Origin: Escherichia phage AV126 | Sequence record: OR352956.1 | DNA: 64,000 nucleotides | Reading direction: 5' to 3' (one strand) | In this document: one piece after another, positions 5,717 to 23,094 of the stretch | How positions within the stretch are numbered: the stretch's first letter is position 1 | Layout of the letters: the number at the start of each line of letters is the position of its first letter | Position numbers and translations under genes: made by a program | The notes under the pieces: model-generated | Databases searched by the model: none | The model's input: only the letters and a program-made list of their open reading frames with translations | Told to the model about the DNA's origin: nothing

Positions 5717-5730
5717 TCGACAACAAAACA

Positions 5731-5759
5731 AGGGGCGCACCAAGCGCCCTTTCTTTTTG
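5731..5759 (+). terminator. rho-independent terminator (same hairpin as at 166-195)
   Basis: GGGGCGCACCAAGCGCCC hairpin plus TTTCTTTTT. Confidence 0.6.
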
Positions 5760-6299
5760 CCTGAACAATGTTGATAGCTTTCGCCTATGAAAAACCGACA
5801 CAGAACAAAACTGAATAAATCGCGGTATCGAGCTAATCAACCATCAAACGAATAACCATACATCCCAGGGCAACAGGCTGTTAGAGAGCTATTTAGAGCG
5901 GTTAAAATCGATCTACAACCAACAACAAACCATCAAAAACACCCTTTTACCTCCTTTCTAGTGCAATGATAACCATTATCATCTACCCATGATTATCTAT
6001 GCAATATAAGCGCATAATTATAATGTTGATAATAGTTCGCAACAACTAACCAACAAACAACATAAAACAATAAGCAAACTAATCATAATCAAAGGAATAA
6101 TAGCAAGATGATTGATAACGACAAACAATCAAACCATGATGAATACTAAGCAAGATAACGATAACACGACAAAACAACCAACTAACGAACAATAACAAAC
6201 GAAACCATTAAAAGATCAACTATTAGCAAAATAGTGTCTATTGCCATAATAGTGACTGAATGAAATCATTACAAAACGAATCATTCCAAGGATCATCAT

Positions 6300-6460
6300 T
6301 AGCACGCTACGCCGGACACGTAGCGAGCTAATAATAAGCCAACTACACCCCAACAATCATAACCATCGGTGACGGTTATTTCTTGTTACTGCGTAGCTTG
6401 CAATAATTGCAAGCGTAATGACGCTTACACTTATTGCGCTGGCTTATTATTAGCATTATA
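6300..6460. repeat. nested inverted-repeat cluster in non-coding region
   Basis: 15-bp inverted repeat GCTAATAATAAGCCA (6327-6341) / TGGCTTATTATTAGC (6440-6454) enclosing palindrome CTTGCAATAATTGCAAG and hairpin CGCTACG-CCGGACA-CGTAGCG. Confidence 0.6.
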
Positions 6461-7275
6461 TGTAATTACCAAGATCATAACATTAGCGCAATAACAATAA
6501 TCATTACAATAATTACATAAGGAAACAATTAGCATAGCAATAATTATGGGGGCAATGGGAGGATGATTATCATCATTCCGATACATTGCACACTATGCAC
6601 ATAATAAGATAAAAAGCAATAATCTTGGGGGCGAAATGTTACCGCCACAGGCGGGAATGTTGAGCATCTTCTCTTAAACGTAAATAAAATCAGAAAATTC
6701 TTGATTTATTTTAGTTTTTATGTTAATAAACGTTTAAATAATAATCATTCTCATATAAATAATAGTCTGCTTGTCATGAGCGGGATTAGTTGACATTGTT
6801 CCGTCATATGATGAAGTTGCCAAGCCATTGATAAATAAGTGTTTGTGTGATTTATAATCAAGTGGCCCACCTTGTCGCTACGTTGGCATGAGCCTTGCAT
6901 AAGTCATTGAATACGAATGATAATTATTCTCATTCGCATGATATTTGGGAATTGTCGCTGCGTGGACCTGACGGCCCGAAAATTCGCGTTAAGCACTTCT
7001 TACGTATGCGCCATGATTTTTGCCATATCATATTGATTCTATTAGATATTCTTGCCATGATTGCCATGAAACAGGGTGTCCCGAAATAATCTCTCCCCGT
7101 AGATATTTTGGGTTACTTTTTATACAAGAGTGGGGTGTCAAAAATAATCGGTATATATGGGATAATTGATAGGAATCCCCTATGATAATTCGATTGTAAT
7201 TCCCTAAGATTGATCGTATGATGTTGGTGATTGATGATTGCCATGAAAGATGGCTAACGATGAGAGGAGATTATC

Positions 7276-7644
7276 ATGCAAGAGAGTAAAAATATTCCGT
7301 TGAGCAGTGCAGCATTGATTCAATTCTACAAAGCATGGATGGCTGATCACTACAGCATGGATCGCACGGAGAATGGACTGTGTTTATGTATTCATCATTT
7401 TGTGCGATCTCATCTTATGAAAGATGTGGAGAATCCCCGATGGTATGCCGACATAATAGATAGCTTGTTGTTTGAGATGCGTGCTCAGTTCAAAGACGCT
7501 GGCATTGATACGTGCGCACCCTTCAACACTGGATATGCGGATTACTTGATTGAAGTGGAAGATAAAATGTGTCACCTGAATCCACTTCGCATTCAGTGGG
7601 TGAAAGATCGCATTGAAGATGCAAATAATGCTTGCATTGAATAA
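7276..7644 (+). CDS. hypothetical protein, paralog family A (copy 1 of 5)
   Basis: GAGAGGAGA SD; shares the GLC...YPF...WVKDR pattern with the ORFs at 10714, 14040, 17338 and 18643. Confidence 0.6.
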   Translation: MQESKNIPLSSAALIQFYKAWMADHYSMDRTENGLCLCIHHFVRSHLMKDVENPRWYADIIDSLLFEMRAQFKDAGIDTCAPFNTGYADYLIEVEDKMCHLNPLRIQWVKDRIEDANNACIE

Positions 7645-7714
7645 AAATGTCTGTATGATGTTTGTATAAGATATGCAATACCGCGCATAACAAACAGCTA
7701 ATGAGGAGATTGGA

Positions 7715-7945
7715 ATGCATAGCATGAAACGCATGAAAATTCGTATTGAGAATGATGGTGGTTATAAAGGATTGGCACATGCAAAATTTCCACTTGTGCT
7801 GGAAGCTACGGTGGAATACAGTGGGCTTGCTCATGTGCGATTCTCGAAGATGATGGAAGTGCAGGAATGGTTTTGGGACGAGATAGATGCACGAGAAGGA
7901 GAAGATTATGTTTTCTTTCCTCACGAATATGAAATTATCTATTAA
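7715..7945 (+). CDS. hypothetical protein, paralog family B (copy 1 of 2)
   Basis: GAGGAG SD; shares EWF...GEDYVFF motif with the ORF at 11424. Confidence 0.55.
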   Translation: MHSMKRMKIRIENDGGYKGLAHAKFPLVLEATVEYSGLAHVRFSKMMEVQEWFWDEIDAREGEDYVFFPHEYEIIY

Positions 7946-7957
7946 GGGTTGTGTGCA

Positions 7958-8197
7958 ATGATCACACCACAACAGAATGAAGCAGCAATGGATCTTCTTG
8001 ATAGTTTGTATTTCGATAATTGGTACTCTGAATGTGAATGGATGAATGTGCAAACTCTGAAAGAGAAGACAAAAGCGTTGATTACAGTAGATCAATTTCT
8101 TGCAGAGACGGAAAGAATGAATTATGATATGGCATCTCGCGCACGACGCGTTTCCATTTTCAATAAAATGTTAGCATTATGGGGAGGTAGAAAATGA
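7958..8197 (+). CDS. hypothetical protein
   Basis: ORF 7949..8197 (TTG) trimmed to ATG at 7958. Confidence 0.45.
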   Translation: MITPQQNEAAMDLLDSLYFDNWYSECEWMNVQTLKEKTKALITVDQFLAETERMNYDMASRARRVSIFNKMLALWGGRK

Positions 8198-8655
8198 GAC
8201 AACCATCTATACTGGAAGCGCATGTGCAGTGTGTTGTAGATTATGTCAAAGAACACTCAAGTTTATTAAATGTAACCTGTGCAGTGCAAAATGATGTAGG
8301 TATTGTCTGTGTGCAACATATCTTATCTGAAACTCGTTATGAAGTGTTTCGTGCCACGTTGTTTGGATGTGATCGGGTGCATGTAAACTTCCTGGACTCC
8401 AATTATCGTTATGCTTTAGAAAATATTGATGACTATCTTCCTTGCTCTCCGACAGGATATGTAATGGTAACAGCAAACGAAGTAACACCGAGCAACAGTG
8501 AACGGGAAGCTTTGTTACGGAAGAAAATACGCCAACTGCAAGTGTTGAATGAAATGCAAGAAGAGATTGAAAAAGAACTAAAAGAAGATTTTGGTATACT
8601 TCCAAAAGACGCTTTGAAATGGTATGATGAACTAGGAGGAGAAAGTTATGAATAA
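8194..8655 (+). CDS. hypothetical protein (153 aa)
   Basis: GGGGAGG SD; ATGA overlap with upstream gene. Confidence 0.55.
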   Translation: MRQPSILEAHVQCVVDYVKEHSSLLNVTCAVQNDVGIVCVQHILSETRYEVFRATLFGCDRVHVNFLDSNYRYALENIDDYLPCSPTGYVMVTANEVTPSNSEREALLRKKIRQLQVLNEMQEEIEKELKEDFGILPKDALKWYDELGGESYE

Positions 8656-8842
8656 AGGAACCACTGTATATTTAGTGACTAAGAACACCCCATGTTGGAA
8701 TCAGTGCACAACGACTCCATATAAAATCTGTGCAACACTGGAACTAGCACAACGTGCAGAAGCAGAAGTTGACGCTATGCATTACAGTTATGGGGAGATC
8801 ATTCCTTTCACTCTGGAACAAGAAGGAGCATACAATGTTTAA
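8648..8842 (+). CDS. hypothetical protein (64 aa)
   Basis: GGAGGAG SD; start overlaps upstream stop. Confidence 0.5.
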   Translation: MNKGTTVYLVTKNTPCWNQCTTTPYKICATLELAQRAEAEVDAMHYSYGEIIPFTLEQEGAYNV

Positions 8843-9293
8843 AGAAGGCCATGTCTACCGTTTCCAGGATGAGGATTATATGCGACTGTATTCTACCTTT
8901 GATAAAGGTATTGCGACTATCATTGGAGAGAATTTTTTCGAGGTGTTGAGCACTGATACGAATGGTAATATCTTGTCAATGGTTGTAATAGGTATGAGAG
9001 ATGGTATTATCACTGCTGGTGATGGGGATCGTTACATAATCAATTCTGCTCATATAGATTATTTTGTTGACGGTGGTGTTCGTGGTGGTCGTGGAAAACC
9101 CCAAGAAGAACCTGTTGATACAACAAAAGAAGAGTGGTATGTTGTAATGACTGATGACACATGTATTTCTGGATTTGAAAGTTATGAAGAAGCTTTGAAA
9201 GAAGCAGCAGAGCATAAAATGGCTAATCCTACAGAAGAGGTTGAAGTTTATAAACGTTTGGTTGTTGCTACCATCGGCGTATCTTTTGTTTAA
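8835..9293 (+). CDS. hypothetical protein
   Basis: ORF 8754..9293 trimmed to ATG at 8835 with AAGGAG SD. Confidence 0.5.
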   Translation: MFKEGHVYRFQDEDYMRLYSTFDKGIATIIGENFFEVLSTDTNGNILSMVVIGMRDGIITAGDGDRYIINSAHIDYFVDGGVRGGRGKPQEEPVDTTKEEWYVVMTDDTCISGFESYEEALKEAAEHKMANPTEEVEVYKRLVVATIGVSFV

Positions 9294-9305
9294 AAGGAGA
9301 ATGTT

Positions 9306-9743
9306 ATGTTTAAAGTTAATGCTGTTTACTGTTTCAAAAGTAAAGCTGCATGTGAAGCTTTCTCTATGATCTCTGATGAAAATTTCAAAATGGCAGCTTT
9401 GATTGAAGGGTCTTGTTTCCGCGTCGAAGATGTTAGTGAATCAGGGTCTGTTTGCTCATTGACTTTATTGGACAGCGGGGATATTATTGAAGCTGGACAG
9501 TATCCGTTCAGAAGTTGGGAGATATTGTTAGCTCGCGGAGAGCGTAACTTTTTTATGTGCGTGTCTGCGGGGGAAGTTGTGAAAGAAACTAAGGATGTTT
9601 CTGTTTACAATTCTGAATTTATAAGTTATAGTGAGTATCAACATCTGGAAGGCATTGTTGGTCACTTGTTATCTCTGATTGACATTGAATGTGACTTGCC
9701 TGAATCATTGAAAGAAGAGTTGAAAGCATTAGATCTGTTATAA
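9306..9743 (+). CDS. hypothetical protein (145 aa)
   Basis: AAGGAGA SD upstream. Confidence 0.55.
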   Translation: MFKVNAVYCFKSKAACEAFSMISDENFKMAALIEGSCFRVEDVSESGSVCSLTLLDSGDIIEAGQYPFRSWEILLARGERNFFMCVSAGEVVKETKDVSVYNSEFISYSEYQHLEGIVGHLLSLIDIECDLPESLKEELKALDLL

Positions 9744-9770
9744 TGTTTCGCACAACGAAAGGAGAATAAG

Positions 9771-10070
9771 ATGAATCTGACCGAACAGTTACGCCGTATT
9801 GCAAAAGAAGCTTCCTTCAACTTCCCTGTTGAAGAAGTGATCGAGACATGTTTTGCTGAAGCACGAGCGGGAAACTCTTCAAGAAATTTCACGCCATCTG
9901 ATTTTGGTCTGGATAACTCCCCTACCCACCCAGGGGAGATCTACAATCAGGTGAAGTGGATGGATGAAGCAGTAGCAATTCTTCGTGAGCGTGGGCTTAT
10001 TGTTTATAAAGAAATGGATCTGAACGGGGCATACGAGTGGATCACTATTGATTGGTCGGAGGTGAAATAA
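9771..10070 (+). CDS. hypothetical protein (99 aa)
   Basis: AAGGAGA SD upstream. Confidence 0.55.
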   Translation: MNLTEQLRRIAKEASFNFPVEEVIETCFAEARAGNSSRNFTPSDFGLDNSPTHPGEIYNQVKWMDEAVAILRERGLIVYKEMDLNGAYEWITIDWSEVK

Positions 10071-10279
10071 TGGTTACTATCACATTGACAGTTACACAAG
10101 AGCAAGCAGAAGAATTACGTGATGCACTGGCATATATGGGACGCGCTTATTATATGCCTCATAAATCTCAAGATGTTTTTGCTACAGCCGTTGAGAAAGC
10201 TTTAAACAAATACCGAGAAACTCATGCCGTTCCTAAAGTATCAGCAGAAGAGTTTGGCACTTGGCACGAAGTTCACTGA
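10070..10279 (+). CDS. hypothetical protein
   Basis: ORF 10052..10279 trimmed to ATG at 10070 (GGAGGTG SD, TAATG overlap). Confidence 0.5.
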   Translation: MVTITLTVTQEQAEELRDALAYMGRAYYMPHKSQDVFATAVEKALNKYRETHAVPKVSAEEFGTWHEVH

Positions 10280-10289
10280 GGAGGTTTCG

Positions 10290-10523
10290 ATGAAAGGTAA
10301 CAAGATGAAAGTTAGTCAAGTGCCGAGCGCATACACTTTGTGGCTTGCGCGAGCGTTACACCAGACGATCAAAAACCCTAAGAAGCCAATGAAGAGCGGG
10401 AAGAAGTTTATGTCTAAGGGCAAAACAACCTTTGGCTTCACTCGTATGTCTGTTAAGATGAAAAGACTGGGATACAAGCCAAACTACGCTCGTTACCCTT
10501 CCGAATACAACTGGTTTGACTAA
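10290..10523 (+). CDS. hypothetical basic protein
   Basis: ORF 10224..10523 trimmed to ATG at 10290 with GAGGAGG SD; Lys/Arg-rich. Confidence 0.5.
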   Translation: MKGNKMKVSQVPSAYTLWLARALHQTIKNPKKPMKSGKKFMSKGKTTFGFTRMSVKMKRLGYKPNYARYPSEYNWFD

Positions 10524-10536
10524 AAGGAGAAAGATT

Positions 10537-10713
10537 ATGGCTACTTTTCAACAATTGAAAGATGTTTCACGTTTAGTAAGAAAAATCCGAGAAGCAGACG
10601 CTGCTGTGCGGAATGCACTAACACCAGCAGAGCGTGAAGATCTTGAAGAGGAGGTGAAAACAGCCGAGAATGCTTTTGCTGCGTATCTTTCAACACTGTA
10701 CACAGGAGGTTAA
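10537..10713 (+). CDS. hypothetical protein
   Basis: ORF 10516..10713 trimmed to ATG at 10537 with AAGGAGA SD. Confidence 0.45.
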   Translation: MATFQQLKDVSRLVRKIREADAAVRNALTPAEREDLEEEVKTAENAFAAYLSTLYTGG

Positions 10714-11028
10714 ATGTCAGAAGAACTTAAAGAATTTTATCAGGCATATCATAACTGGCTGTTAGCTGGTGCTCCAGATAATAATCCTTTCTGGCATGAT
10801 AAAGGGTTATGTAGTTGCCTCTATCTTTGGTCTGGTGGTTATGATGACCTAAATTATGAAATGCAAATGCAATTCCGCGAAGCAGGTTTGTCTGAAGAAT
10901 ACCCGTTTGATGATGGGGATTGGTTTAAATATGATTTTGCACAAAGAAACGGGCTGCTACATTTAAATGCTGCCCGTATAAAATGGGTAAAAGATCATGC
11001 TACACAGGAGGATGTGCAATGCCTATAG
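10714..11028 (+). CDS. hypothetical protein, paralog family A (copy 2 of 5)
   Basis: AGGAGG SD; conserved GLC...YPF...WVKD pattern. Confidence 0.6.
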   Translation: MSEELKEFYQAYHNWLLAGAPDNNPFWHDKGLCSCLYLWSGGYDDLNYEMQMQFREAGLSEEYPFDDGDWFKYDFAQRNGLLHLNAARIKWVKDHATQEDVQCL

Positions 11029-11219
11029 TGTTTGTTTTCTTGGCAATTGTTATGGTTGTTCTTTTCGCCGCATGGCTTTGGGATTTTGACCCAGGAGCCG
11101 CGCAGCAAAGAGCTACAGACTTGAAAGAACAATGTATTGTGCTCAAACATGAACGAAATGCGGAGAAATTTCTTGACCTGGAGTGTGATCGCCTTGTAAG
11201 ATACAAGCAAGATAAATAA
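11019..11219 (+). CDS. hypothetical membrane protein
   Basis: ORF 10983..11219 trimmed to ATG at 11019 (AGGAGGA SD); hydrophobic N-terminal helix. Confidence 0.45.
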   Translation: MPIVFVFLAIVMVVLFAAWLWDFDPGAAQQRATDLKEQCIVLKHERNAEKFLDLECDRLVRYKQDK

Positions 11220-11233
11220 CTTTTAGGTGCAAA

Positions 11234-11422
11234 ATGGTAATTGAGATTAAACTTGAATATGCTGGGGCTGTTGCCTTGATCGCACAAATGCTTGGAGCAA
11301 AGATTGAAGAAGTGTATATCAACGCCTGGAGCGTAGAGATTGATGTTCCTATGGACAACATTGCTAATCGCTTGCTGGTGGCAGAGTGTGAACGCACCAA
11401 CATAATCTACAAAGGAGCATAA
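11234..11422 (+). CDS. hypothetical protein (62 aa)
   Basis: ORF in operon context. Confidence 0.45.
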   Translation: MVIEIKLEYAGAVALIAQMLGAKIEEVYINAWSVEIDVPMDNIANRLLVAECERTNIIYKGA

Positions 11423-11423
11423 T

Positions 11424-11645
11424 ATGAAAATTAGAGTTTGTGATGTATTGGGTTATGTTGGTTTTGAGAATGTTCAGATTCCTTTTGTTGTTGAAGCACA
11501 TCTTGTTAGTGAGGATATGACAACATTCTTTGTTACGATAGAAGAAATGTCCAAAGTTGAGGGATGGGAGTGGTTTGAAGAAGATGTTTGGGAAGGTTGT
11601 GATTACGTATTCTTCTCTGACGAAGTGAATGTTCTTGCGGAGTAG
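11424..11645 (+). CDS. hypothetical protein, paralog family B (copy 2 of 2)
   Basis: AAGGAG SD; EGWEWFEEDVWEGCDYVFF motif matches the ORF at 7715. Confidence 0.55.
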   Translation: MKIRVCDVLGYVGFENVQIPFVVEAHLVSEDMTTFFVTIEEMSKVEGWEWFEEDVWEGCDYVFFSDEVNVLAE

Positions 11646-11647
11646 GT

Positions 11648-11854
11648 ATGTCTTGTTTTACAAAAGCAGTGTCCATATGTAAGAAACAGTATGAAAGTGA
11701 TTACGGAATATTTAATATTCCAGTAGATCATACAGTGTATTGTTCATGTGGTGGCAGAATGAAGAAAACAGTGATTTATGCGGATAATGGAGATGAACTT
11801 GTTCCAGTTATGGTTTGCAAAGCTTGTCATTCTGTTAAAACATTAAAAGCGTAA
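11648..11854 (+). CDS. hypothetical zinc-ribbon-like protein (68 aa)
   Basis: Cys pairs CSCGG ... CKACH. Confidence 0.45.
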   Translation: MSCFTKAVSICKKQYESDYGIFNIPVDHTVYCSCGGRMKKTVIYADNGDELVPVMVCKACHSVKTLKA

Positions 11855-11950
11855 GGAGTCGGGACACCCGACGATTGGAGCTAAAAATTTTGCGTACAAC
11901 CCTTTCCGCCCAACAGGGGGCGCATCGGGTAAACAAAGAGGAGAGTTTAT

Positions 11951-12349
11951 ATGAAAAAGATTATCGTAGGTTTATTGTTACTCATTGCATCTCTTGGAAC
12001 AGCAAATGCATCTCAAGTTTATGAGTGTGTATCAGACGTAGTTGTTAAAAATCTGAAAGGTGAAGTGATTTCTGGCCCTAAGAAAATGGCTTCTGTTGTC
12101 ATTAATAAAGACAACTCCTTTATCCTTAAAAATTCGGGTGGTGCTTTGATGAGCGGTATTCTTCAAAACACAGGAGGAAAGAGTAAAGATGGAAGTTCTA
12201 TGTACGGTTCACAGCAGTTTATTGGCACTACCGAAGTTGTGATGATGCGCACAGAGTATCGAGATACTTTAGCTTGGTTTGCATTTCTAAAAAATGATAA
12301 AACAATAACGAATGTTCTTACTCTAGAAGCTGATTGTACGCAACGATAA
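11951..12349 (+). CDS. hypothetical secreted protein (signal peptide)
   Basis: MKKIIVGLLLLIASLGTANA leader; AGAGGAGAG SD. Confidence 0.55.
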   Translation: MKKIIVGLLLLIASLGTANASQVYECVSDVVVKNLKGEVISGPKKMASVVINKDNSFILKNSGGALMSGILQNTGGKSKDGSSMYGSQQFIGTTEVVMMRTEYRDTLAWFAFLKNDKTITNVLTLEADCTQR

Positions 12350-12358
12350 GGGGGATTT

Positions 12359-12805
12359 ATGACTAAAGTGAGGCATTACGCTGTAAACTGCAACGATGCT
12401 TGGCGTTTGTGTCCTGATGATCCTACAGAAGGGACATTTGTAAGATATGAGGATTATAAAGAGTTATCGGATGCTGTGATCGCATTGTTAACTGATATCC
12501 GTTCACGTTATCCAGGACAAGATTTCACTTGCCCTCACATCAAACTTCTTGCTTGTCTGGTAGAAGGTGAGAAAGAAGTGGAAGATGGCTTCAAGCGTGT
12601 AGAGTATCAAGGTGAAACTTTAGATGTTCCTGAGTTTGTTAATTATATTGCAACAGATTCGAGTGGCGAGCGTTATGGCTACAGCCATAAGCCAGAGATT
12701 CCTGATTGGATTCCCGCTTGGAGATATTCCGTTAGTACCGGAGACTATATCTTCCTTGGTGTAGGTAGTAGTAAGGATTGGCGTTTCTCTTTGACAGAGG
12801 TTTAA
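12359..12805 (+). CDS. hypothetical protein (148 aa)
   Basis: ORF in operon context. Confidence 0.5.
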   Translation: MTKVRHYAVNCNDAWRLCPDDPTEGTFVRYEDYKELSDAVIALLTDIRSRYPGQDFTCPHIKLLACLVEGEKEVEDGFKRVEYQGETLDVPEFVNYIATDSSGERYGYSHKPEIPDWIPAWRYSVSTGDYIFLGVGSSKDWRFSLTEV

Positions 12806-12809
12806 TAAT

Positions 12810-13073
12810 ATGGAAGAAACATTACCAGCAGCATATCGTTTGAATGATGAGCGTATTTGGGAGTGGACCGACGTTTCTTGTTTTTACCCTGAAATAGTTC
12901 AGTATTGGCGAGCGAAAGGGTGTATTGTGGTTATCAACCCTTGTGGACCAGTGGATGAAGATTGCTTGTATCTCGATGGAAAGTGGCACAGTTATTGTCG
13001 CTGGCCTTTTGAGTGGATGTGTAAAGAAGATCTCCCAGAGGGTTGGGAGTATCCAAAAGCAAATAGGAGATAA
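12810..13073 (+). CDS. hypothetical Cys/Trp-rich protein (87 aa)
   Basis: ORF in operon context. Confidence 0.5.
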   Translation: MEETLPAAYRLNDERIWEWTDVSCFYPEIVQYWRAKGCIVVINPCGPVDEDCLYLDGKWHSYCRWPFEWMCKEDLPEGWEYPKANRR

Positions 13074-13074
13074 T

Positions 13075-13437
13075 ATGTCTAAAGATTTTGTTGAAGTGTT
13101 TGTCAAAGATGAAGAAACTGGTTTAGGCACGGGTTTCATTTGTGAAGAAACTTTTAAACGTGAACAAGAAAAAGCTATCCTTATGCGAAACTATGATCAT
13201 GCATTAGAACAATGGAAAAATGCAGAACAAAAATGCAAAAACCTTTATGCAGAAAATAGAAAACTACAAGATCAAATGGAGTTGTTAGCTATCAGTTTAC
13301 GATCTCTCATTTTGGCTGTAGAAGACGGTTTTAAAAATCCAGATGGTTTTCCTGTGAGCGATATTGAACATGATTTGTATCTTGCTCGTGGTGCTTACTT
13401 TTATGTTAAACAGAAGTCTGTAGAAGGAGAGAAGTGA
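13075..13437 (+). CDS. hypothetical protein
   Basis: ORF 12925..13437 trimmed to ATG at 13075 with AGGAGA SD. Confidence 0.5.
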   Translation: MSKDFVEVFVKDEETGLGTGFICEETFKREQEKAILMRNYDHALEQWKNAEQKCKNLYAENRKLQDQMELLAISLRSLILAVEDGFKNPDGFPVSDIEHDLYLARGAYFYVKQKSVEGEK

Positions 13438-13634
13438 TGGAAGAAAAACTGGAACGTATTATCGAGTTAGCCATGTCTATTGGCTACGACGATTGTTTTC
13501 TCCAAACTATTGGAGAAACACAGAACGATTACGACTCTTGGGTGAAAGAGTTGGAAGAACTCAAAACTTCCTTGATTGCTGACTTTGCTGAAGCAGAGGA
13601 TAGAGCGGATCGTTACAACTATCTGTGTCGATAA
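13434..13634 (+). CDS. hypothetical protein (66 aa)
   Basis: ATGA-coupled to upstream gene. Confidence 0.5.
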   Translation: MMEEKLERIIELAMSIGYDDCFLQTIGETQNDYDSWVKELEELKTSLIADFAEAEDRADRYNYLCR

Positions 13635-13695
13635 ACCTTGACATTTCTTTTATGTATGGTATACATACATTATCAACACAGATAAGGAGAGAAAA

Positions 13696-14040
13696 ATGAT
13701 TAAACTTTTATGTGCAGAGTCTTCTGTCGAGTTCCTTAAAGAGGGTAAGCAGTATCTAGCTTCCCAAGTTATAGATAATCCAGGTTTGTTTTATATTACA
13801 GACGAAGAAGGGGATACCCTGTGTATCTCTTTGATTATGGATTGTGGTCGGTTTCATGTAATTGAGGATGACACTATTCGTCTCTTTGAGGTTTCCTACA
13901 CAAAAGACAATGGTCCTGTCCGTAAATATCAAATTCCCGCAAAATCCGCCTTTAACGCATGTGTACGATTAGGTCAAATCTACGGGGACGATAAAGATTG
14001 TCGTGAAGACGTGTTTATCAATGTGATCGAGGTAAAATAA
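13696..14040 (+). CDS. hypothetical protein (114 aa)
   Basis: AAGGAGAG SD; TTGACA promoter-like motif upstream at 13638. Confidence 0.55.
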   Translation: MIKLLCAESSVEFLKEGKQYLASQVIDNPGLFYITDEEGDTLCISLIMDCGRFHVIEDDTIRLFEVSYTKDNGPVRKYQIPAKSAFNACVRLGQIYGDDKDCREDVFINVIEVK

Positions 14041-14366
14041 TGAAAACAAGTAAAGATTTGATGGAGTTTTATAAAATTTATCTAGCATGGATTGATGTTG
14101 GTGCTCCTGATGGTAAACCTTTTCGGCGGGATTGTGGTTTGTGTGCCAACTTGTTCGATTATGTGCACAGAGGTAATTACAACCCCATTATAACAACCTT
14201 ATCAGATGAAATGCACGCACAGTTTTACCATAAAAGGTTGAATCAAGGACTCCCTTTCAATGAGAACTACGATGCATATGTCTTAGAGTCAGATGCAGAT
14301 GCCTGTCACCTGAACGTGGACAGAATTAATTGGGTAAGAGATCGTATTGCAGAGGAGGATGAATAA
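14040..14366 (+). CDS. hypothetical protein, paralog family A (copy 3 of 5)
   Basis: conserved GLC...LPF...H.N.DRI.WV.DR pattern. Confidence 0.6.
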   Translation: MKTSKDLMEFYKIYLAWIDVGAPDGKPFRRDCGLCANLFDYVHRGNYNPIITTLSDEMHAQFYHKRLNQGLPFNENYDAYVLESDADACHLNVDRINWVRDRIAEEDE

Positions 14367-14593
14367 TGTCGGATTATAACTGGTATGAACTTGAAGCTGT
14401 TTGTCAGTTTTATGATTCAATAGTTCTGCGTGATCCAATCTGTCAAGAATTGAGTCGCCGTGCAAGTGCATTGGCAATCCGTGTTAAAATAAATGGTTGG
14501 AACCCAGACTTGGAAAAAGAGTTGGAATTTCTCTTAGAAACAACACGTGTCTTCCACAAAGTGTTCCCTGAATGGTTCGAGATGGAAGAATGA
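14366..14593 (+). CDS. hypothetical protein (75 aa)
   Basis: GGAGGA SD; coupled start. Confidence 0.5.
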   Translation: MSDYNWYELEAVCQFYDSIVLRDPICQELSRRASALAIRVKINGWNPDLEKELEFLLETTRVFHKVFPEWFEMEE

Positions 14594-14811
14594 TCATGTG
14601 GATTGTACGTCTTAAATATGATGGCCCTGATCCTTGGGTGCATAACGTTTGCGGTTGTGATTCCGAACAAGCAGCACATAAAGCAGGAAGAGCAGTAAGT
14701 GCCTTCTATAATGACAAACCTCTTTGTTTAGAAATGGCAGGTGTGGTTTGTATGAGTATGTTCGAATACTACTCTTATGAAATCAAAGAACACCAAGGGG
14801 AATGGAAATAA
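14590..14811 (+). CDS. hypothetical protein
   Basis: ORF 14572..14811; start placed at ATG 14590, but 14572 is also possible. Confidence 0.4.
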   Translation: MIMWIVRLKYDGPDPWVHNVCGCDSEQAAHKAGRAVSAFYNDKPLCLEMAGVVCMSMFEYYSYEIKEHQGEWK

Positions 14812-14815
14812 ATCG

Positions 14816-14844
14816 TTGACAGAAGGATCTGTCTTTGTCATAAT
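14816..14844 (+). promoter_or_regulatory. sigma70-like promoter (TTGACA - 17 nt - CATAAT)
   Basis: consensus -35 with 17 nt spacer upstream of gene 14874. Confidence 0.55.
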
Positions 14845-14873
14845 CATCTCATCGAAACAAAGAGGAGAAAATC

Positions 14874-15287
14874 ATGAAAAAGTTTATTTGCACCCGTTCC
14901 ACTAACAGTGATATCCTTGTAGGTAAGGTTATCAAAGGAGAACTCTTCCATGCAAATGGTAAGAAATATATCCTGCTGAAAGATTCTTTCAACGGGGAAT
15001 ATCCGCGCTGCACTTTCTTCAATTACAACACTCCATTTGCTTTAGAAGGAGATGCTTGGGAATGGGCTGAACTCAATCCTTGTTGTGAGGAAGAAGAATC
15101 TATGTTCTTAGGTTTAAACGTTTACCGTGTAGATTACACCATGTGCGGAGCGGAACATTCTGTTCGCGTAGAAGCCGAATCCAAACTACAAGCACCTTTC
15201 AAGGCGGGGTTGACTTTGGGTCATTGTTTGGCAAACATTGAAGATGTTGTGATCCAAAGAGTTGTTTTAGAGAAAGAGGCTATTTGA
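14874..15287 (+). CDS. hypothetical protein (137 aa)
   Basis: AGAGGAGA SD; own promoter. Confidence 0.55.
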   Translation: MKKFICTRSTNSDILVGKVIKGELFHANGKKYILLKDSFNGEYPRCTFFNYNTPFALEGDAWEWAELNPCCEEEESMFLGLNVYRVDYTMCGAEHSVRVEAESKLQAPFKAGLTLGHCLANIEDVVIQRVVLEKEAI

Positions 15288-15340
15288 TAGAAGACGGTGC
15301 AATATTTAAAATATAAAAATTAACCACAAAGGAGATAGAT

Positions 15341-15640
15341 ATGCAAGTTGAAGACCTGATCAACATTCTGAATAAAGCCAAAGAGAAAGGGGCTATTAAG
15401 GACTGGAAACGTGAAACAAGTGAAGACCTATCTCACTGTTGCCGAGAATTTTACATCGAAGGTATTGCTGACGATCATTATATTATCGAATGGTATATCA
15501 ACTTAATGACTCTTAAGCACGGTTCGTTTGAGGTTTGGTTTGATGACATTGATGTAAATGGTTTTCATCCTGGCTATAAAATTGCTATGCAGTTATCTTA
15601 TCGTAGAGAAGTTGTAGCACATTTGGGTTTACATAACTAA
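15341..15640 (+). CDS. hypothetical protein (99 aa)
   Basis: AAGGAGA SD. Confidence 0.55.
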   Translation: MQVEDLINILNKAKEKGAIKDWKRETSEDLSHCCREFYIEGIADDHYIIEWYINLMTLKHGSFEVWFDDIDVNGFHPGYKIAMQLSYRREVVAHLGLHN

Positions 15641-15650
15641 GGAGAAAAGA

Positions 15651-15974
15651 ATGCAAGCAGTTGTTAACGAAGCTATTATGAACTTATCCTTCTTGTTAGC
15701 TGGTTTAGGAGGTGTTCTCATAGGTTTGGCTCTTATCTGGTGTATTCGTCGATTAATCGGGTACCGACAAAAAGGTGTTTCATGTTTTGTATCTTACAAT
15801 TTTACAACTGCTTACAGCAATGAGGTTGGATCTGGTAATGCTCAAGCATTTTTACCAACATATCCTCCTACAGTAGAAGATATTCGAAACTTGGAAGTAG
15901 AACTTATGGGACTAGGTGATAACTATACATCTCTAGTTATTCAAAATATTTTTCGACTAAAACAGGAGGCGTGA
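15651..15974 (+). CDS. hypothetical membrane protein (107 aa)
   Basis: AAGGAGA SD; N-terminal transmembrane segment. Confidence 0.5.
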   Translation: MQAVVNEAIMNLSFLLAGLGGVLIGLALIWCIRRLIGYRQKGVSCFVSYNFTTAYSNEVGSGNAQAFLPTYPPTVEDIRNLEVELMGLGDNYTSLVIQNIFRLKQEA

Positions 15975-16187
15975 ATGAAGGTACATTACCCTCATCCCTT
16001 TGATCCTAAAAACAAAGCCGTAATTCTTCGTCAGTGGCAACGGGTTTGCCGTACTAAATGTCCAATCAATAGCCCACACAATGTAGACAAGGACTATCTT
16101 GGGACATTTATTGAATACACTTACATAGACAAAAACAAGCGTAAACAACATGTCGAGGAATACTGCTTAAGAGTAGAATGGCTGTAA
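15975..16187 (+). CDS. hypothetical protein (70 aa)
   Basis: AGGAGG SD. Confidence 0.5.
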   Translation: MKVHYPHPFDPKNKAVILRQWQRVCRTKCPINSPHNVDKDYLGTFIEYTYIDKNKRKQHVEEYCLRVEWL

Positions 16188-16199
16188 ATAATAAATACC

Positions 16200-16228
16200 T
16201 TGACAAGTGTTTATTCGTTTTGTAAAGT
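16200..16228 (+). promoter_or_regulatory. sigma70-like promoter (TTGACA - 17 nt - TAAAGT) upstream of the recombinase gene
   Basis: consensus -35, 17 nt spacer; partial palindrome AATAAATAC / GTGTTTATT flanks the -35. Confidence 0.5.
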
Positions 16229-16257
16229 GAGAATACAGCAATGGTTTAGGAGTGGTT

Positions 16258-16929
16258 ATGAAAAAGTTTGTTGTTTACAGTCGTCTTTCTAAACAGAAAA
16301 AAGGTGAGGCACAATATGGTATGGAGAGCCAAGAGAATGATATCCGTTACTTCTTAGACTCTGTGCCTGATGCGGAAGTTATTGGTCAATTTTCTGAATA
16401 CTATTCGGGTAAGGGTGATTGGAAGCAACGTAAGGAACTGGTTAAAGCGGTTGAAATGTGTAAAGCTACCGGAGCAACTTTATTGGTAGCTAAAGTTGAC
16501 CGCTTGGGTCGTAACAACGCCTCCGTAGCAACTCTTCTAGAAATGATCGATGTTAAGATAGCCATCATGCCAGACGCAGATAAAATGGTTATACAGCTTC
16601 TGTCTGTTCTGGCTGAACAAGAAGTTAGAGGTATTGCTGATCGTATTAAAAAGGGTCTTGCTGTAGCAAAAAGCAAAGGTGTTTTATTAGGCAGTGCTAA
16701 TCCTAAAACTGCCGCTGCACGTAGAAAAGGAAAAATGGAATACAACTCTGTTAAAGCAGACGCTTTTGCAGAGACATTCCGTGAACGCTTGGAGATCCTT
16801 AGAGATTTAAATACACCTTACAAAACTATTGCTGAAAAATTCAATAGTAAGAAAATAGCAACAGCACGTGGTGGTAAATGGGATGCTAAAACTGTTTCTC
16901 GTTTGTGTGCCAGACTGAACATTAAATAG
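16258..16929 (+). CDS. serine recombinase (resolvase/invertase family)
   Basis: N-terminal catalytic YSRLS serine motif, LLVAKVDRLGRN resolvase signature, C-terminal HTH-like tail; AGGAGTGG SD. Confidence 0.7.
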   Translation: MKKFVVYSRLSKQKKGEAQYGMESQENDIRYFLDSVPDAEVIGQFSEYYSGKGDWKQRKELVKAVEMCKATGATLLVAKVDRLGRNNASVATLLEMIDVKIAIMPDADKMVIQLLSVLAEQEVRGIADRIKKGLAVAKSKGVLLGSANPKTAAARRKGKMEYNSVKADAFAETFRERLEILRDLNTPYKTIAEKFNSKKIATARGGKWDAKTVSRLCARLNIK

Positions 16930-16937
16930 GAGAGGAT

Positions 16938-17360
16938 ATGAAACAAGAAAATGAATCTGTAGATCACTTAATCATGCTGTCAGCCCTTTTTGCCGGATGG
17001 AACGTATTTTTTGAAAATTTGTTCAATTCTGCTACAGATGGTTCCGATTTTATGCGCCAGTTTAAACGACGAACTGTTGAGGACTATGCTTTCTATTCAG
17101 GTCGGATTGAAAAAGGTTACGAAGATACAAATACAACACTCACCATTAAAGTTTTAGATGTGATGTTTAGTGTTATAGATGCTATCGACGAAAGTCTTCC
17201 GATCCTAGACAATTGTAATACGAAAGCCTATGTTTACAAAATAGCTCGTGCTTATGTGTCTGCAAACAGTTGTCTTCTTTCCGCCCAGATTGCCGTGAAC
17301 AATCTTGCCAACTTGTTCGATGAAGGAGAAACTTTTTATGACAATCGATTTGAAGTGTAA
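16938..17360 (+). CDS. hypothetical protein (140 aa)
   Basis: AGGAGAGGA SD. Confidence 0.5.
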   Translation: MKQENESVDHLIMLSALFAGWNVFFENLFNSATDGSDFMRQFKRRTVEDYAFYSGRIEKGYEDTNTTLTIKVLDVMFSVIDAIDESLPILDNCNTKAYVYKIARAYVSANSCLLSAQIAVNNLANLFDEGETFYDNRFEV

Positions 17361-17703
17361 GAGGATTCTTTTAGATTTCTATAATAATTGGTTAGAACAC
17401 CTCCGTCTCTTTCCAAGAGAAAGTGGTTACGCTGATGTTGGCTTATGCCGAGGTCTACGTATGTATATAAGTGATGAATTTCGGGCCGAGCATTCTTTAG
17501 CATATTCTGTTTATGGTATGCAATTAGCCAGTTTTGAAAACGCTGGCTTAGATACAACTTTCCCATTTAACACAGCAAAATCTTTTGAGCAAGAGTGTAA
17601 GGAAAAACGTTGCATGTTTAATGAAAAACGTGTACAGTGGGTTAAGGATCGAGTTAAACAACTGGAACAAGAGTTGGATTTCTTCTATGATGAGGCAGAA
17701 TAA
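17338..17703 (+). CDS. hypothetical protein, paralog family A (copy 4 of 5)
   Basis: ORF 17305..17703 trimmed to ATG at 17338 (GAAGGAGA SD); conserved GLC...FPF...WVKDR pattern. Confidence 0.55.
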   Translation: MTIDLKCKRILLDFYNNWLEHLRLFPRESGYADVGLCRGLRMYISDEFRAEHSLAYSVYGMQLASFENAGLDTTFPFNTAKSFEQECKEKRCMFNEKRVQWVKDRVKQLEQELDFFYDEAE

Positions 17704-17975
17704 TGGATAGACAAACCTTAAAAACAATGGCAGATGCCACTAATTCCCCGTACTTTGAAAAAGTAAGTAAATTGGTAGCTCAAGCCGCAGAGGAAGGATA
17801 TTATAACATAAACATCCACAACCCAAGTCTTATACTAGAAATGCCAAGTGATAAGAAGATACAAGAGAGTATCTGTGAAGGTATTGTTAGTTACTGGCGC
17901 GAGCGTGGGTGTGGTGCAAACATGGCTTTAGACAGTGCAAACATTGTAAGATATATAAATATTTCTTGGGGGTGA
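17703..17975 (+). CDS. hypothetical protein (90 aa)
   Basis: coupled start. Confidence 0.5.
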   Translation: MDRQTLKTMADATNSPYFEKVSKLVAQAAEEGYYNINIHNPSLILEMPSDKKIQESICEGIVSYWRERGCGANMALDSANIVRYINISWG

Positions 17976-17979
17976 TTTT

Positions 17980-18591
17980 ATGATTCAATGCACTCATATC
18001 CAAATTACTTGGAGAGATGAACTTTACCATTTGGGACAATTTACTGTAGGGGAAACATACCCTATCATTAAACATAATCCTAACATCGCAAACTTTGACA
18101 GGATGGTTCTTGTTGAGGACGATCTAGGTCAAACTTATTCTTTAGATCTAAAATATCCGTTTTCTTACGGCTACGATTGGATCGTTACTTTTGAAGACGT
18201 GGAGGAAAATAAAACAATGAACGAAAAAAATTCTTGGTATTATCGTTGTGAACTGCCACCAGTAGGTGAAAAGGTTATCTTTGTCCCTGATTTGGAAAGA
18301 TATTCTTGGGACAGTTCTTATTCTGTTCCTAAAGAAGGCACCGAAGTTGAAGTTATTGCACATCGCACAACTTCGCATGGTAACGATGTAGCAGTTGTTT
18401 TCTGGGATGATGAAGGCGCTGCTTGTGCAGGTGGCTTTGTTGCAGGTAATTTTGAACCCCTGCCAGATCCTTTGAAGGAGGCAATTTTAGGCGTAGCTTC
18501 TTTTGGACTCTCTTACACATCTGCACAAGAGATCGTAGAAGGTATTTTAAACGGTACCGTTCCAAACGAAATTTTTAAACAGATTAAATAA
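17980..18591 (+). CDS. hypothetical protein (203 aa)
   Basis: GGGGGTGA SD. Confidence 0.55.
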   Translation: MIQCTHIQITWRDELYHLGQFTVGETYPIIKHNPNIANFDRMVLVEDDLGQTYSLDLKYPFSYGYDWIVTFEDVEENKTMNEKNSWYYRCELPPVGEKVIFVPDLERYSWDSSYSVPKEGTEVEVIAHRTTSHGNDVAVVFWDDEGAACAGGFVAGNFEPLPDPLKEAILGVASFGLSYTSAQEIVEGILNGTVPNEIFKQIK

Positions 18592-18597
18592 TAGTTG

Positions 18598-18625
18598 CAC
18601 CCCGTTCTGCGGGGTGTTATTGTAT
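18598..18625 (+). terminator. putative intrinsic terminator (CACCCCG-TTCT-GCGGGGTG hairpin)
   Basis: GC hairpin followed by T-rich tract. Confidence 0.45.
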
Positions 18626-18642
18626 ATGTAAAGGAGGCGCTA

Positions 18643-18981
18643 ATGTATTACACTGAAGACTACATATTGTATAACTTTTTTAAAGGTTGGTTGAAATGGG
18701 CGGAACAAGCTCCTGTCGGAGATTGTGTTTTTCCTTGGGATTCTCGTCAAGGCTTGTGTCGTTGTTTGGAAGATTGGCTTATAACCACAAACTACAATTC
18801 AGAAACTAAGAAATCTACATCAAACAGATTAAAAATGTTATTTGAAGAAGATGGTTTAGATCCAATTTATCCTTTCGGTGCTGAAAGCTTCCACAATGGT
18901 CTTTTTCTTGGCACTCAACATTATGACAAAGATCGCGTAGATTGGGTAAAAGAAAAGGTAGCACAGTATGAATGGGGCTAA
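18643..18981 (+). CDS. hypothetical protein, paralog family A (copy 5 of 5)
   Basis: ORF 18595..18981 trimmed to ATG at 18643 (AAGGAGG SD); conserved GLC...YPF...WVKEK pattern. Confidence 0.55.
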   Translation: MYYTEDYILYNFFKGWLKWAEQAPVGDCVFPWDSRQGLCRCLEDWLITTNYNSETKKSTSNRLKMLFEEDGLDPIYPFGAESFHNGLFLGTQHYDKDRVDWVKEKVAQYEWG

Positions 18982-19171
18982 GACTTATCATCGTTGGTTA
19001 GAAAGTTATATTAAGAAATGTGAACTTGGTGTTCCAGGTTATACTTACGACACGGACGAGATTCTTGATGAGATGGAAGTTTGGTTTAAAGAGCCTCGTG
19101 AACTATTGTCAAATATTCTAATGGCTTGGGATGGTACAGCACAAAGCATCGGAGGAGGTAGAAATGAGTAA
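18968..19171 (+). CDS. hypothetical protein (67 aa)
   Basis: ORF in operon context. Confidence 0.45.
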   Translation: MNGAKTYHRWLESYIKKCELGVPGYTYDTDEILDEMEVWFKEPRELLSNILMAWDGTAQSIGGGRNE

Positions 19172-22420: not shown

Positions 22421-22583
22421 GGAGAAATAATGGTTTCATTTATCGTAGGTGTAGTTGTAGGCTATCTTATTAACAAATATCAAGACGTTATCACGGCAAA
22501 AGTAAAAGACATTTTAGACTCATCTAAATAATCTATCAAAGCTGCATCTTCAATAGGTGCAGCCTTTTAAAAGGAGATATGGC

Positions 22584-22757
22584 ATGACTAAACGCACTGA
22601 TTTTAAATGTATGCATTGTGGGAAATCTTTTGGGGATCATCAAGCTCGCACATTCAACTGTCCACGTAAAGGTCGCGGAAATTTTAAAGGTTTTAATCCC
22701 GCACATGTTTATTCTCCAGATTACGATAAGCCAGAAGAAGAAAAATTTGTTATTTAA
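22584..22757 (+). CDS. hypothetical zinc-ribbon protein
   Basis: ORF 22557..22757 trimmed to ATG at 22584 (AAGGAGA SD); CMHCGK ... FNCPRKG motifs. Confidence 0.45.
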   Translation: MTKRTDFKCMHCGKSFGDHQARTFNCPRKGRGNFKGFNPAHVYSPDYDKPEEEKFVI

Positions 22758-22769
22758 TAAGGAGGTCAT

Positions 22770-23051
22770 ATGGAACTCGTTCAAGAATTGTATAATGCTT
22801 TAGGAGCAAAAGGAAAGGATTGGCCCGAACATGCGCTTATCGCTATAAGAGACTCCGATGGTGAGATTAAGTTCTCTAGTGTAAGTAAAGAACACATCGT
22901 AGAAAATGAGTTTGGTATTTACATGCGTGGAACTTATTGCTTATTCAACACCAGAATGGTAGAAGCCCCTGTTATTGAGTGTGGAACAAAAGATTGCCCC
23001 ACAATCGTAACAAAATCTGAATATGAGAAGTTTTTCTACGCTAAAGCTTGA
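22770..23051 (+). CDS. hypothetical protein (93 aa)
   Basis: AAGGAGG SD. Confidence 0.55.
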   Translation: MELVQELYNALGAKGKDWPEHALIAIRDSDGEIKFSSVSKEHIVENEFGIYMRGTYCLFNTRMVEAPVIECGTKDCPTIVTKSEYEKFFYAKA

Positions 23052-23094
23052 CACAGAAACAATACTATAGGATAGTGATTCTATCGTAGCAATA

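What the first reader, a model, noticed from the sequence alone, without database searches (positions are those of the whole stretch)
7276..18981. Five-copy paralogous small-protein family spread through the early gene forest
The ORFs at 7276, 10714, 14040, 17338 and 18643 (~105-125 aa) share an ordered pattern: an aromatic-x-x-W-L N-terminal segment, GLC-x-x-L, an F/Y-P-F core, and a C-terminal H-x-N-x-x-R-[IV]-x-W-V-[KR]-[DE]-[KR]. They recur every ~3.4 kb (two only ~1.3 kb apart). Such multi-copy diversification is typical of host-takeover or anti-defence effectors under selection. I do not recognise the family.
Basis: seen in the sequence. Interest (0 to 1): 0.6.

Follow-up and report, generated by a model that had tools for sequence, protein, structure and literature searches.

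The report
Five-copy phage early protein family
Five small genes in the early region of this E. coli phage really are ancient copies of one another; they belong to a very widespread but never-studied phage protein family (it includes gene 3 of the model phage N4) that has a fold unlike any solved structure and still has no known function.

Summary
Five + strand genes (7276, 10714, 14040, 17338, 18643) form one collinear family. Nine of ten pairs match at E 1e-4 to 1e-18, and there is no sixth copy in the window. The window is a Phapecoctavirus, a phAPEC8-like E. coli myovirus.

The family is catalogued without a function as PHROG 2510 and pVOG 7392. I show that it includes phage N4 gp3. It has 1,828 sequence clusters in virulent phages of Proteobacteria, usually at the first-expressed genome end, often in several copies or as 2-3-domain fusions. 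It has no Pfam, NCBIfam or PADLOC match.

AlphaFold gives a confident five-helix bundle (pLDDT 93.5) with no relative among solved structures. Cys35, Pro72-Phe73 and Arg95 are about 99.5% invariant over 218 domains. The proteins are acidic.

Three members in phage PTXU04 were dispensable in a published knock-down screen. Four window copies are under purifying selection. Copy 1 is an allelic hot spot, and copy number varies from 5 to 7 between near-identical phages.

Best reading (about 0.45): dispensable early host-protein binders for takeover or counter-defence. The mechanism is unproven. The anti-defence interpretation is plausible but not shown.

The parts
7276..7644 (+). Copy 1 (122 aa, pI 5.1). 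It is the first gene after a terminator and a ~1.5-kb ORF-poor stretch. This is the hypervariable allelic slot of the family.
   Evidence: ORF. PHROG 2510 at E 1.5e-20. Family HMM at 1.6e-43. Its allele is only 49-64% identical to the alleles at the same locus in close relatives, while the ends are conserved (MQESKN.PLSS ... QWVKDRIEDANNACIE).
10714..11028 (+). Copy 2 (104 aa, pI 4.5). Its start codon directly abuts the stop of the upstream gene.
   Evidence: ORF. PHROG 2510 at E 6.4e-29. Its orthologs are 99% identical, with dN/dS 0.013.
14040..14366 (+). Copy 3 (108 aa, pI 5.0). Its ATG overlaps the stop of the upstream gene. This copy was used for the structure model.
   Evidence: ORF. PHROG 2510 at E 2.8e-31. 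AlphaFold2 pLDDT 93.5, pTM 0.86, five helices. Its orthologs average 89.6% identity, with dN/dS 0.285.
17338..17703 (+). Copy 4 (121 aa, pI 5.3). It overlaps the 3' end of the upstream gene and has Met in place of the semi-conserved His.
   Evidence: ORF. PHROG 2510 at E 2.2e-26. The ATG 17338 start matches the annotation in relatives. dN/dS 0.052.
18643..18981 (+). Copy 5 (112 aa, pI 4.8). It is the most divergent copy and has Asp in place of the helix-capping Asn.
   Evidence: ORF. PHROG 2510 at E 1.1e-26. The ATG 18643 start matches relatives. dN/dS 0.069.
18597..18617 (+). Terminator-like GC-rich hairpin followed by a T-rich tail, between the upstream gene and copy 5.
   Evidence: Consensus scan: 9 pairs, 6 of them G-C. 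It argues that the TTG 18595 extension of copy 5 is not translated. This is a pattern match only.

Best explanation
The five genes encode members of the 'N4 gp3-like' family (PHROG 2510 / pVOG 7392). Each is a ~105-residue, acidic, aromatic-rich five-helix bundle made very early in infection by virulent phages of Proteobacteria.

Most likely they are dispensable accessory proteins that act by binding host proteins stoichiometrically, for host takeover or counter-defence. In this reading the invariant core (helix 1 face, G-L-C, E-M-x-x-Q-F, P-F, N-x-x-R-I-x-W-V) keeps the scaffold. The hypervariable stretch from the end of helix 2 to the start of helix 3, together with helix 4, carries target specificity. 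Old paralogs would then cover different targets or target variants, and the copy 1 slot is exchanged between phages as alleles. They probably work as dimers or pseudo-dimers.

Shown: homology, family extent, predicted fold, acidity, dispensability of three homologs, the selection pattern and copy-number variation.

Inferred: early expression in this phage, protein binding, dimerisation, and any link to defence.
For: - Family reality and extent. The exhaustive profile search finds 1,828 clusters at E<=1e-3 and 810 at E<=1e-10.
- N4 gp3 is a member, at E 1.4e-20. It lies between the known early genes gp1/gp2 and gp15/gp16 (PMC4496689).
- Position near the first-expressed genome end. In N4-like phages it sits 1-3 kb from the left end. 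In PTXU04 three tandem copies lie near the right end. In this window copy 1 is the first gene after a terminator and an ORF-poor stretch.
- Dispensability: PTXU04_00085, 86 and 87 were each scored 'Not Fit' in the CRISPRi-ART screen (PMC11879866 supplement).
- Acidity: the five copies have pI 4.5-5.3 and net charge -4 to -10. The family median pI is 5.2.
- The confident five-helix model has no solved relative. Its only structural relatives are uncharacterised phage proteins.
- Variable versus conserved segments: the Cys35-Glu57 segment ranges from 9 to 37 residues and has the highest entropy.
- Copy number varies from 5 to 7 among near-identical genomes. Copy 1 shows allelic replacement.
- Tandem 2-3-domain fusions exist. 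A two-domain member models with pLDDT 94.6 and pTM 0.80, meaning the two domains take a fixed mutual arrangement.
- The family is almost confined to phages. There is one hit in 72,556 plasmids, on a plasmid carrying phage-type genes and phd/doc. It matches no defence-system model.
Against: - No target, phenotype or interaction is known for any member.
- Several polar residues are conserved far better than a pure scaffold would need: Cys35 in 214/215 domains, Arg95 in 217/218, Asn92 91%, Gln61 85%, Glu57 83%. This fits a common ligand or catalytic site at least as well as diversified protein binding.
- Four of the five copies are under plain purifying selection, like their neighbours.
- Dispensability in PTXU04 could simply reflect redundancy among three tandem copies.
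- Early timing in this phage is inferred from gene position, not measured.
Confidence: 0.45

Rival explanations
1. The domain has one conserved chemical function: a small enzyme or a ligand- or metal-binding module. It would be built around the invariant Cys35 at the N-terminus of helix 2 and Arg95, helped by Glu57, Gln61, Asn92 and the frequent His90. Possible activities include sequestering or modifying a host small molecule or nucleotide signal, or thiol chemistry. Paralogs would differ in substrate range or partner.
For: Cys35, Pro72, Phe73 and Arg95 are about 99.5% invariant over 218 domain instances, including every domain of the 2-3-domain fusions. Several polar residues are 83-91% conserved at about 30% overall identity. 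The family spans phages of alpha-, beta- and gamma-proteobacteria, which suits a universal small ligand. Tandem fusions and a rigid two-domain model fit an oligomeric binding site.
Against: His90 is only 75% conserved (Tyr, Met or Phe otherwise), and window copy 4 has Met, so a Cys-His dyad is not general. Ser4, Gly33 and Asn92 sit at helix N-termini, and Arg95 lies on the same helix face as the core Trp98 and Val99, so many 'polar invariants' may be structural. A 105-residue all-helical protein with no structural relative among enzymes or known sponges. I could not inspect model coordinates, so whether these residues cluster in 3D is untested.
Confidence: 0.2
2. The proteins serve the phage's own programme, for example as cofactors, chaperones or regulators of phage early transcription, replication or genome entry. 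They would bind phage rather than host proteins.
For: In N4, gp3 sits among early genes whose known products (gp1, gp2, gp15, gp16) build the phage's own transcription machinery. Most copies are strongly conserved among relatives.
Against: The family occurs in phages with entirely different transcription and replication strategies: Schitoviridae, Drexlerviridae, Stephanstirmvirinae, Vequintavirinae, Rhizobium and Burkholderia phages. No gene neighbour is constant. Single knock-downs in PTXU04 had no fitness cost. Copy number varies freely from 5 to 7.
Confidence: 0.15
3. They are nucleic-acid-binding regulators (helix-turn-helix-like) that control early transcription or bind host DNA or RNA.
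Confidence: 0.05

Closest known systems
Phage N4 gp3 and 'N4 gp3-like' proteins of Schitoviridae (PHROG 2510, pVOG 7392)
   Same: Homologous over the whole domain: the family HMM hits N4 gp3 at E 1.4e-20 and Erwinia phage Frozen gp8 at about 1e-27. They share the same length, the same G-L-C / P-F / N-x-x-R-I-x-W-V motifs and the same position in the early gene cluster.
   Different: N4 has one copy. This phage has five in the window, and relatives have up to seven. Neither N4 gp3 nor any other member has a described function, so the comparison names the family but does not explain it.
PTXU04 gp85, gp86 and gp87 (Xuquatrovirus), the only members with published functional data
   Same: Family members at E 1e-24 to 1e-30, multi-copy, near the genome end.
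   Different: They are three directly tandem copies rather than dispersed ones. Each was scored 'Not Fit' (dispensable) on knock-down in a lab strain. No equivalent data exist for this phage.
Small acidic early phage inhibitors of host proteins (T7 Ocr, T4 AsiA, N4 gp8; recalled from general knowledge)
   Same: They work alike in the proposed model: about 100 residues or fewer, early expression, acidic, acting by stoichiometric binding, usually non-essential in lab hosts.
   Different: No sequence or structural relationship. The profile search and both fold searches of the PDB, which holds Ocr, AsiA and many anti-defence proteins, returned nothing significant. This is resemblance of lifestyle only.
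Phage nucleotide 'sponge' proteins (Acb2, Tad1, Tad2; recalled from general knowledge)
   Same: Small, oligomeric, widespread in unrelated phages, dispensable without the cognate defence. A conserved pocket would fit the invariant polar residues.
   Different: No similarity to any solved chain. No ligand is known. The sponges are typically single-copy, not 5-7 paralogs.

Membership tests
PHROG 2510 / pVOG 7392 / 'N4 gp3-like' family (function unknown) | Significant full-length profile match | tested here: met
   All five copies hit phrog_2510 at E 1.5e-20 to 2.8e-31 over about 105 residues. The orthologs in phage anhysbys are labelled VOG7392.
PHROG 2510 / pVOG 7392 / 'N4 gp3-like' family (function unknown) | Homology to N4 gp3 itself | tested here: met
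   An HMM of 60 family members hits the N4 gp3 ORF (NC_008720 1214-1528) at E 1.4e-20, covering model positions 2-105.
PHROG 2510 / pVOG 7392 / 'N4 gp3-like' family (function unknown) | Conserved motif set (F-Y, G-L-C, Q-F, P-F, N-x-x-R-x-x-W-V) and a five-helix fold shared with other members | tested here: met
   Conservation over 218 domains. The model of copy 3 superposes on BFVD models of members from Rhizobium, Burkholderia, Achromobacter, Delftia and Pectobacterium phages at TM 0.77-0.85.
Structurally characterised anti-defence or host-takeover proteins (Ocr, ArdA, Acb2, Tad1/2, Gad1, Acr proteins, AsiA and others) | Sequence or fold similarity to a solved member | tested here: not met
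Proteins of known anti-phage defence systems (PADLOC-DB) | Match to any defence-system protein model | tested here: not met
   No hit at E<=1 for any of the five copies.
Curated anti-defence collections (AntiDefenseFinder, dbAPIS) | Match to a curated anti-defence HMM | not testable with these tools
   These libraries are not available here. The literature search found no member named as an anti-defence gene.
Cysteine peptidase-like enzymes (Cys-His-Asn/Asp triad) | Invariant nucleophile Cys plus invariant general-base His | tested here: not met
   Cys35 is invariant, but His90 is only 75% conserved (Tyr 26, Met 5, Phe 5 of 218 domains), and window copy 4 has Met. The fold is all-helical with no peptidase match.
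T4 GoF (comC-alpha) 'mRNA metabolism modulator', a label present in annotations of relatives | The label applies to these genes | tested here: not met
   In vB_Ec-G1 and phAPEC8_ev052 the goF label sits on homologs of neighbouring genes in the 8.6-9.7 kb stretch of the window (including 8835-9293 and 9306-9743), not on any family copy. All family orthologs are labelled 'hypothetical protein'.
Pfam HNH_2 / Imm45 / YaeQ (weak hits) | Score at or above Pfam's gathering threshold | tested here: not met
   The best hits score 13-16 bits against cut-offs of 21-27 bits, and each hits only one copy. Of the 60 sequences scanned (58 relatives plus one window copy), only one had any Pfam hit at E<=0.01, and that was an unrelated Pfam family.

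The most novel reading that the evidence does not exclude
The N4 gp3-like domain is a phage-specific fold with a single conserved chemical site (invariant Cys35 and Arg95, with Glu57, Gln61 and Asn92). It would act as a new kind of small enzyme or ligand/metal-binding module, for example one that captures or modifies a host immune or stress signal. Phages would deploy it in arrays of 1-9 paralogs and tandem fusions in the first minutes of infection.
Probability: 0.15. Interest if true: 0.75.

Novelty: new member of a known kind. Interest (0 to 1): 0.4.

Why it matters
This is one of the larger phage-only protein families with no Pfam entry, no structure and no function. It has over 1,800 clusters at 50% identity, occurs in at least five unrelated groups of virulent phages, and appears in therapeutic-type E. 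coli phages in 5-7 copies.

Linking it to N4 gp3 and to PTXU04 gp85-87 puts it in two genetically tractable phages. There, a clean deletion, a defence-library plating assay and a pull-down could assign a function.

If it proves to be a counter-defence or takeover module, its copy number and the hypervariable copy 1 slot would become useful markers of host range in Phapecoctavirus and related phages. If the invariant Cys/Arg site proves catalytic or ligand-binding, it would be a new fold with a new activity.

As it stands, it is a solid but functionally open annotation improvement, not a surprise.

Tried and rejected
1. Pfam, NCBIfam and PADLOC scans of the five copies, and Pfam on 60 sequences (58 relatives plus one window copy): nothing above threshold.
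3. The goF annotation lead belongs to neighbouring genes.
4. The Atd1 lead (an anti-TIR gene reported in Phapecoctavirus) is a MazG-like pyrophosphatase, unrelated.
5. The JSS1_004 lead is a T7 gp0.7-type kinase, unrelated.
6. Literature searches for phrog_2510, N4 gp3, and early or anti-defence genes of Schitoviridae and Phapecoctavirus found no functional description.
7. A second word-indexed protein search with a wider profile added little.
9. A degenerate DNA pattern for R-I-Q-W-V-K-D-H in 185,579 genomes gave 8 hits, none of them a family member. That is about the number I estimated by hand for chance matches. The pattern covers only one sub-type, so this is weak evidence of absence from bacterial chromosomes.
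10. The idea that the ~3.4-kb spacing reflects a repeated multi-gene module: only one other gene pair is co-duplicated.
11. Gene-wide positive selection: not seen, with dN/dS 0.013-0.285.
12. The promoter scan was not enriched over shuffles (52 sites against 42.8 +/- 5.5), so it was not used.
13. Repeats in the ORF-poor stretch before copy 1: nothing notable.
Full report
**What is there**

The region holds a dense array of short + strand genes.

A terminator-like hairpin at 18597-18617 lies inside the TTG extension of copy 5.

A MAFFT alignment is collinear, with 12 invariant columns. Against the window's own 679 six-frame ORFs, nine of the ten pairs are significant at E 1e-4 to 1e-18. The tenth pair (copy 1 versus copy 5, E 0.14) is bridged by the other copies. 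An HMM of the five finds exactly five members in the 64 kb.

It is the largest paralogous family in the window. The only other co-duplicated genes are 7715-7945 and 11424-11645, each shortly downstream of a family copy. The near-regular 3.3-3.4-kb spacing is therefore at most a faint trace of an old segmental duplication, not a repeating module.

**Where the window comes from**

The region is 96-98% identical to Phapecoctavirus genomes (phAPEC8-like E. coli myoviruses of about 150 kb, Stephanstirmvirinae). The best match is vB_Ec-G1. All family orthologs there are annotated 'hypothetical protein'.

**What family it is**

- All five copies match PHROG 2510 (unknown function) at E 1e-20 to 1e-31.
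- In phage anhysbys, seven genes of the same region are tagged pVOG VOG7392.
- Nothing matches in Pfam, NCBIfam or PADLOC. Of the 60 sequences scanned (58 relatives plus one window copy), only one had a Pfam hit at E<=0.01, to an unrelated family.
- An exhaustive profile search of 1.84 billion representative proteins gives 1,828 clusters at E<=1e-3 and 810 at E<=1e-10. These include many proteins with two or three tandem copies of the domain.
- A tblastn search of 50,697 phage records finds 258 records and 627 places. They include Stephanstirmvirinae, Vequintavirinae, Drexlerviridae, N4-like Schitoviridae of Escherichia, Erwinia, Klebsiella and Achromobacter, and Rhizobium, Ralstonia and Delftia phages. 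Some genomes have up to 8-9 places.
The family HMM hits N4 gp3 itself at E 1.4e-20. So the family is the N4 gp3 family.
- Only one of 72,556 plasmids has a member, and that plasmid carries phage-type genes and phd/doc.
- A narrow DNA-pattern scan of bacterial genomes found no member.

**Structure**

AlphaFold2 on copy 3 with a 30-sequence alignment gives pLDDT 93.5 and pTM 0.86. The model has five helices: 5-19, 34-43, 50-64, 77-85 and 93-107.

In the viral model library, the only matches are uncharacterised phage proteins, with TM up to 0.85.

A natural two-domain member models at pLDDT 94.6 and pTM 0.80. This implies a fixed packing of the two domains, and by inference a tendency of single-domain members to pair.

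**Conservation pattern**

Over 218 domain instances:

| Residue(s) | Conservation |
|---|---|
| Cys35 | 214/215 |
| Pro72, Phe73, Arg95 | 217/218 each |
| Phe10, Gly33 | 98% |
| Leu7, Leu34 | 96% |
| Phe62, Trp98 | 95% |
| Tyr11 | 93% |
| Asn92, Val99 | 91% |
| Gln61 | 85% |
| Glu57 | 83% |
| His90 | 75% (window copy 4 has Met) |

Many of these are core aromatics or helix caps. The invariant Cys and Arg are not obviously explained by packing.

The segment between Cys35 and Glu57 varies from 9 to 37 residues. Together with helix 4, it has the highest entropy.

The proteins are acidic. The five copies have pI 4.5-5.3 and net charge -4 to -10, and the family median pI is 5.2. This argues against nucleic-acid binding.

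**Dynamics**

The homologous region of eight close relatives holds 5-7 copies. Extra slots lie immediately upstream of copy 1 and about 700 nt downstream of copy 3.

Nei-Gojobori dN/dS against these relatives is 0.013 for copy 2, 0.052 for copy 4, 0.069 for copy 5 and 0.285 for copy 3. Neighbouring genes lie mostly between 0.03 and 0.26, with a few up to 0.46, so this is ordinary purifying selection.

Copy 1 is different. The 12-kb early region as a whole is about 96-98% identical between these genomes. Yet the window's copy 1 allele is only 49-64% identical in protein to the alleles in the relatives. At least five or six allele types share conserved ends (MQESKN.PLSS ... QWVKDRIEDANNACIE) around a variable body. 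This is the pattern of cassette-like allelic replacement.

**Functional data from elsewhere**

Phage PTXU04 carries three tandem members, gp85-87. In the genome-wide CRISPRi-ART knock-down screen, each was scored 'Not Fit', meaning dispensable in the laboratory host. The authors' HHpred annotation was 'unknown' (PMC11879866 supplementary files 8 and 16).

In N4, gp3 lies between gp1/gp2 and gp15/gp16. All of these are early products transcribed from the left end, which is injected first (PMC4496689). Early expression of gp3 and of the window copies is inferred from position.

I found no paper describing a function for any member.

**Interpretation**

The facts fit best a family of non-essential early proteins that bind host proteins. 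The supporting facts are:
- small, acidic helical bundles;
- position among the first genes expressed;
- individual dispensability in a defence-poor lab strain;
- presence only in phages, mostly virulent ones;
- free gain and loss of copies;
- one slot with allelic turnover;
- variable surface segments on a rigid core;
- tandem fusions.

Whether the purpose is takeover or counter-defence cannot be decided here. I put this reading at about 0.45.

The main rival (about 0.2) is a common chemical site built on the invariant Cys and Arg, acting as an enzyme, metal site or small-molecule binder. The unusually strict polar conservation favours it. I could not test it because model coordinates are not exposed.

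A phage-internal role (about 0.15) is disfavoured by the spread across phages with unrelated replication and transcription strategies and by the lack of any constant neighbour. Nucleic-acid binding (about 0.05) is disfavoured by charge.

**Novelty and verdict**

The sequences are already in public records and are clustered automatically (PHROG, pVOG). The family is therefore not new as an entity, and a paralogous set of hypothetical early genes in a 150-kb phage will not surprise a specialist.

This analysis adds:
- the link to N4 gp3;
- the true size of the family;
- the absence of any Pfam model or solved fold;
- the near-absolute Cys, Pro-Phe and Arg signature;
- the copy 1 allelic hot spot;
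- the connection to existing knock-down data.

I file it as a new, uncharacterised member of a known kind (small early accessory phage proteins), with moderate interest of 0.4. There is a roughly 15% chance that it hides a new small enzyme or ligand-binding fold.

Noticed in passing
window 7715-7945 and 11424-11645 (+): A second paralogous pair (BLASTP 1.6e-10; both match phrog_15322, function unknown). Each lies shortly downstream of a family copy, which suggests an old segmental duplication. The homolog is labelled 'protein ea8.5' in Shigella phage SF1-1.
   Followed up: partly
window 8835-9293 and 9306-9743 (+): Adjacent genes that share PHROG hits (phrog_3710 and 5804), so they are probably distant paralogs. 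Homologs of genes in this stretch carry the label 'goF mRNA metabolism modulator' in some records. The label is unverified and inconsistent between records.
   Followed up: partly
window 16258-16929 (+): Serine recombinase / DNA invertase-like gene (phrog_125 at E 2.6e-32). It is 100% identical in protein in 7 relatives (dN = 0), which is unusual conservation for this region. The label 'methionine ABC transporter ATP-binding protein' appears in this region in several GenBank records. In phAPEC8_ev052 it sits on this gene's homolog, which looks like a mislabel; in other records the similar label is on the small upstream gene.
   Followed up: partly
window 5720-7270, with hairpin 5730-5752: An ORF-poor ~1.5-kb stretch that follows a strong terminator-like hairpin readable on both strands and precedes copy 1. 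At least three deposited genomes (ESCO37, ESCO5, MRostami-2023b) start their numbering here. There are no notable repeats.
   Followed up: partly
window 11951-12349 (+): The 132-aa protein begins MKKIIVGLLLLIASLGTANA, a signal-peptide-like N-terminus. It may be an exported protein within the early cluster. It matches phrog_26124, function unknown.
   Followed up: no
window 60249-62173 (+): A cluster of 10 tRNA genes: Met, Arg, Ser, Asn, Thr, Gly, Gln, Pro, Ile, Met.
   Followed up: no
window ~22500-23500: GC skew changes sign, and the gene array switches from the + strand to the - strand.
   Followed up: no
public records matching window 7000-19000: Phapecoctavirus-like genomes 81-97% identical to this region are deposited as 'Campylobacter phage B15' and 'A110a', 'Acinetobacter phage vB_AbaM_ABPW7' and 'Pseudomonas phage PsgM04F'. 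These host labels look doubtful.
   Followed up: no
L002 1277-1621; L012 9505-9825; L013 8819-9106: Relatives carry extra family copies that are absent from the window. One abuts copy 1 upstream, one lies about 700 nt after copy 3, and phiWec190 has a further one. In Klebsiella phage ZCKP1 the copy 3 slot is empty while the slot after it is filled.
   Followed up: partly
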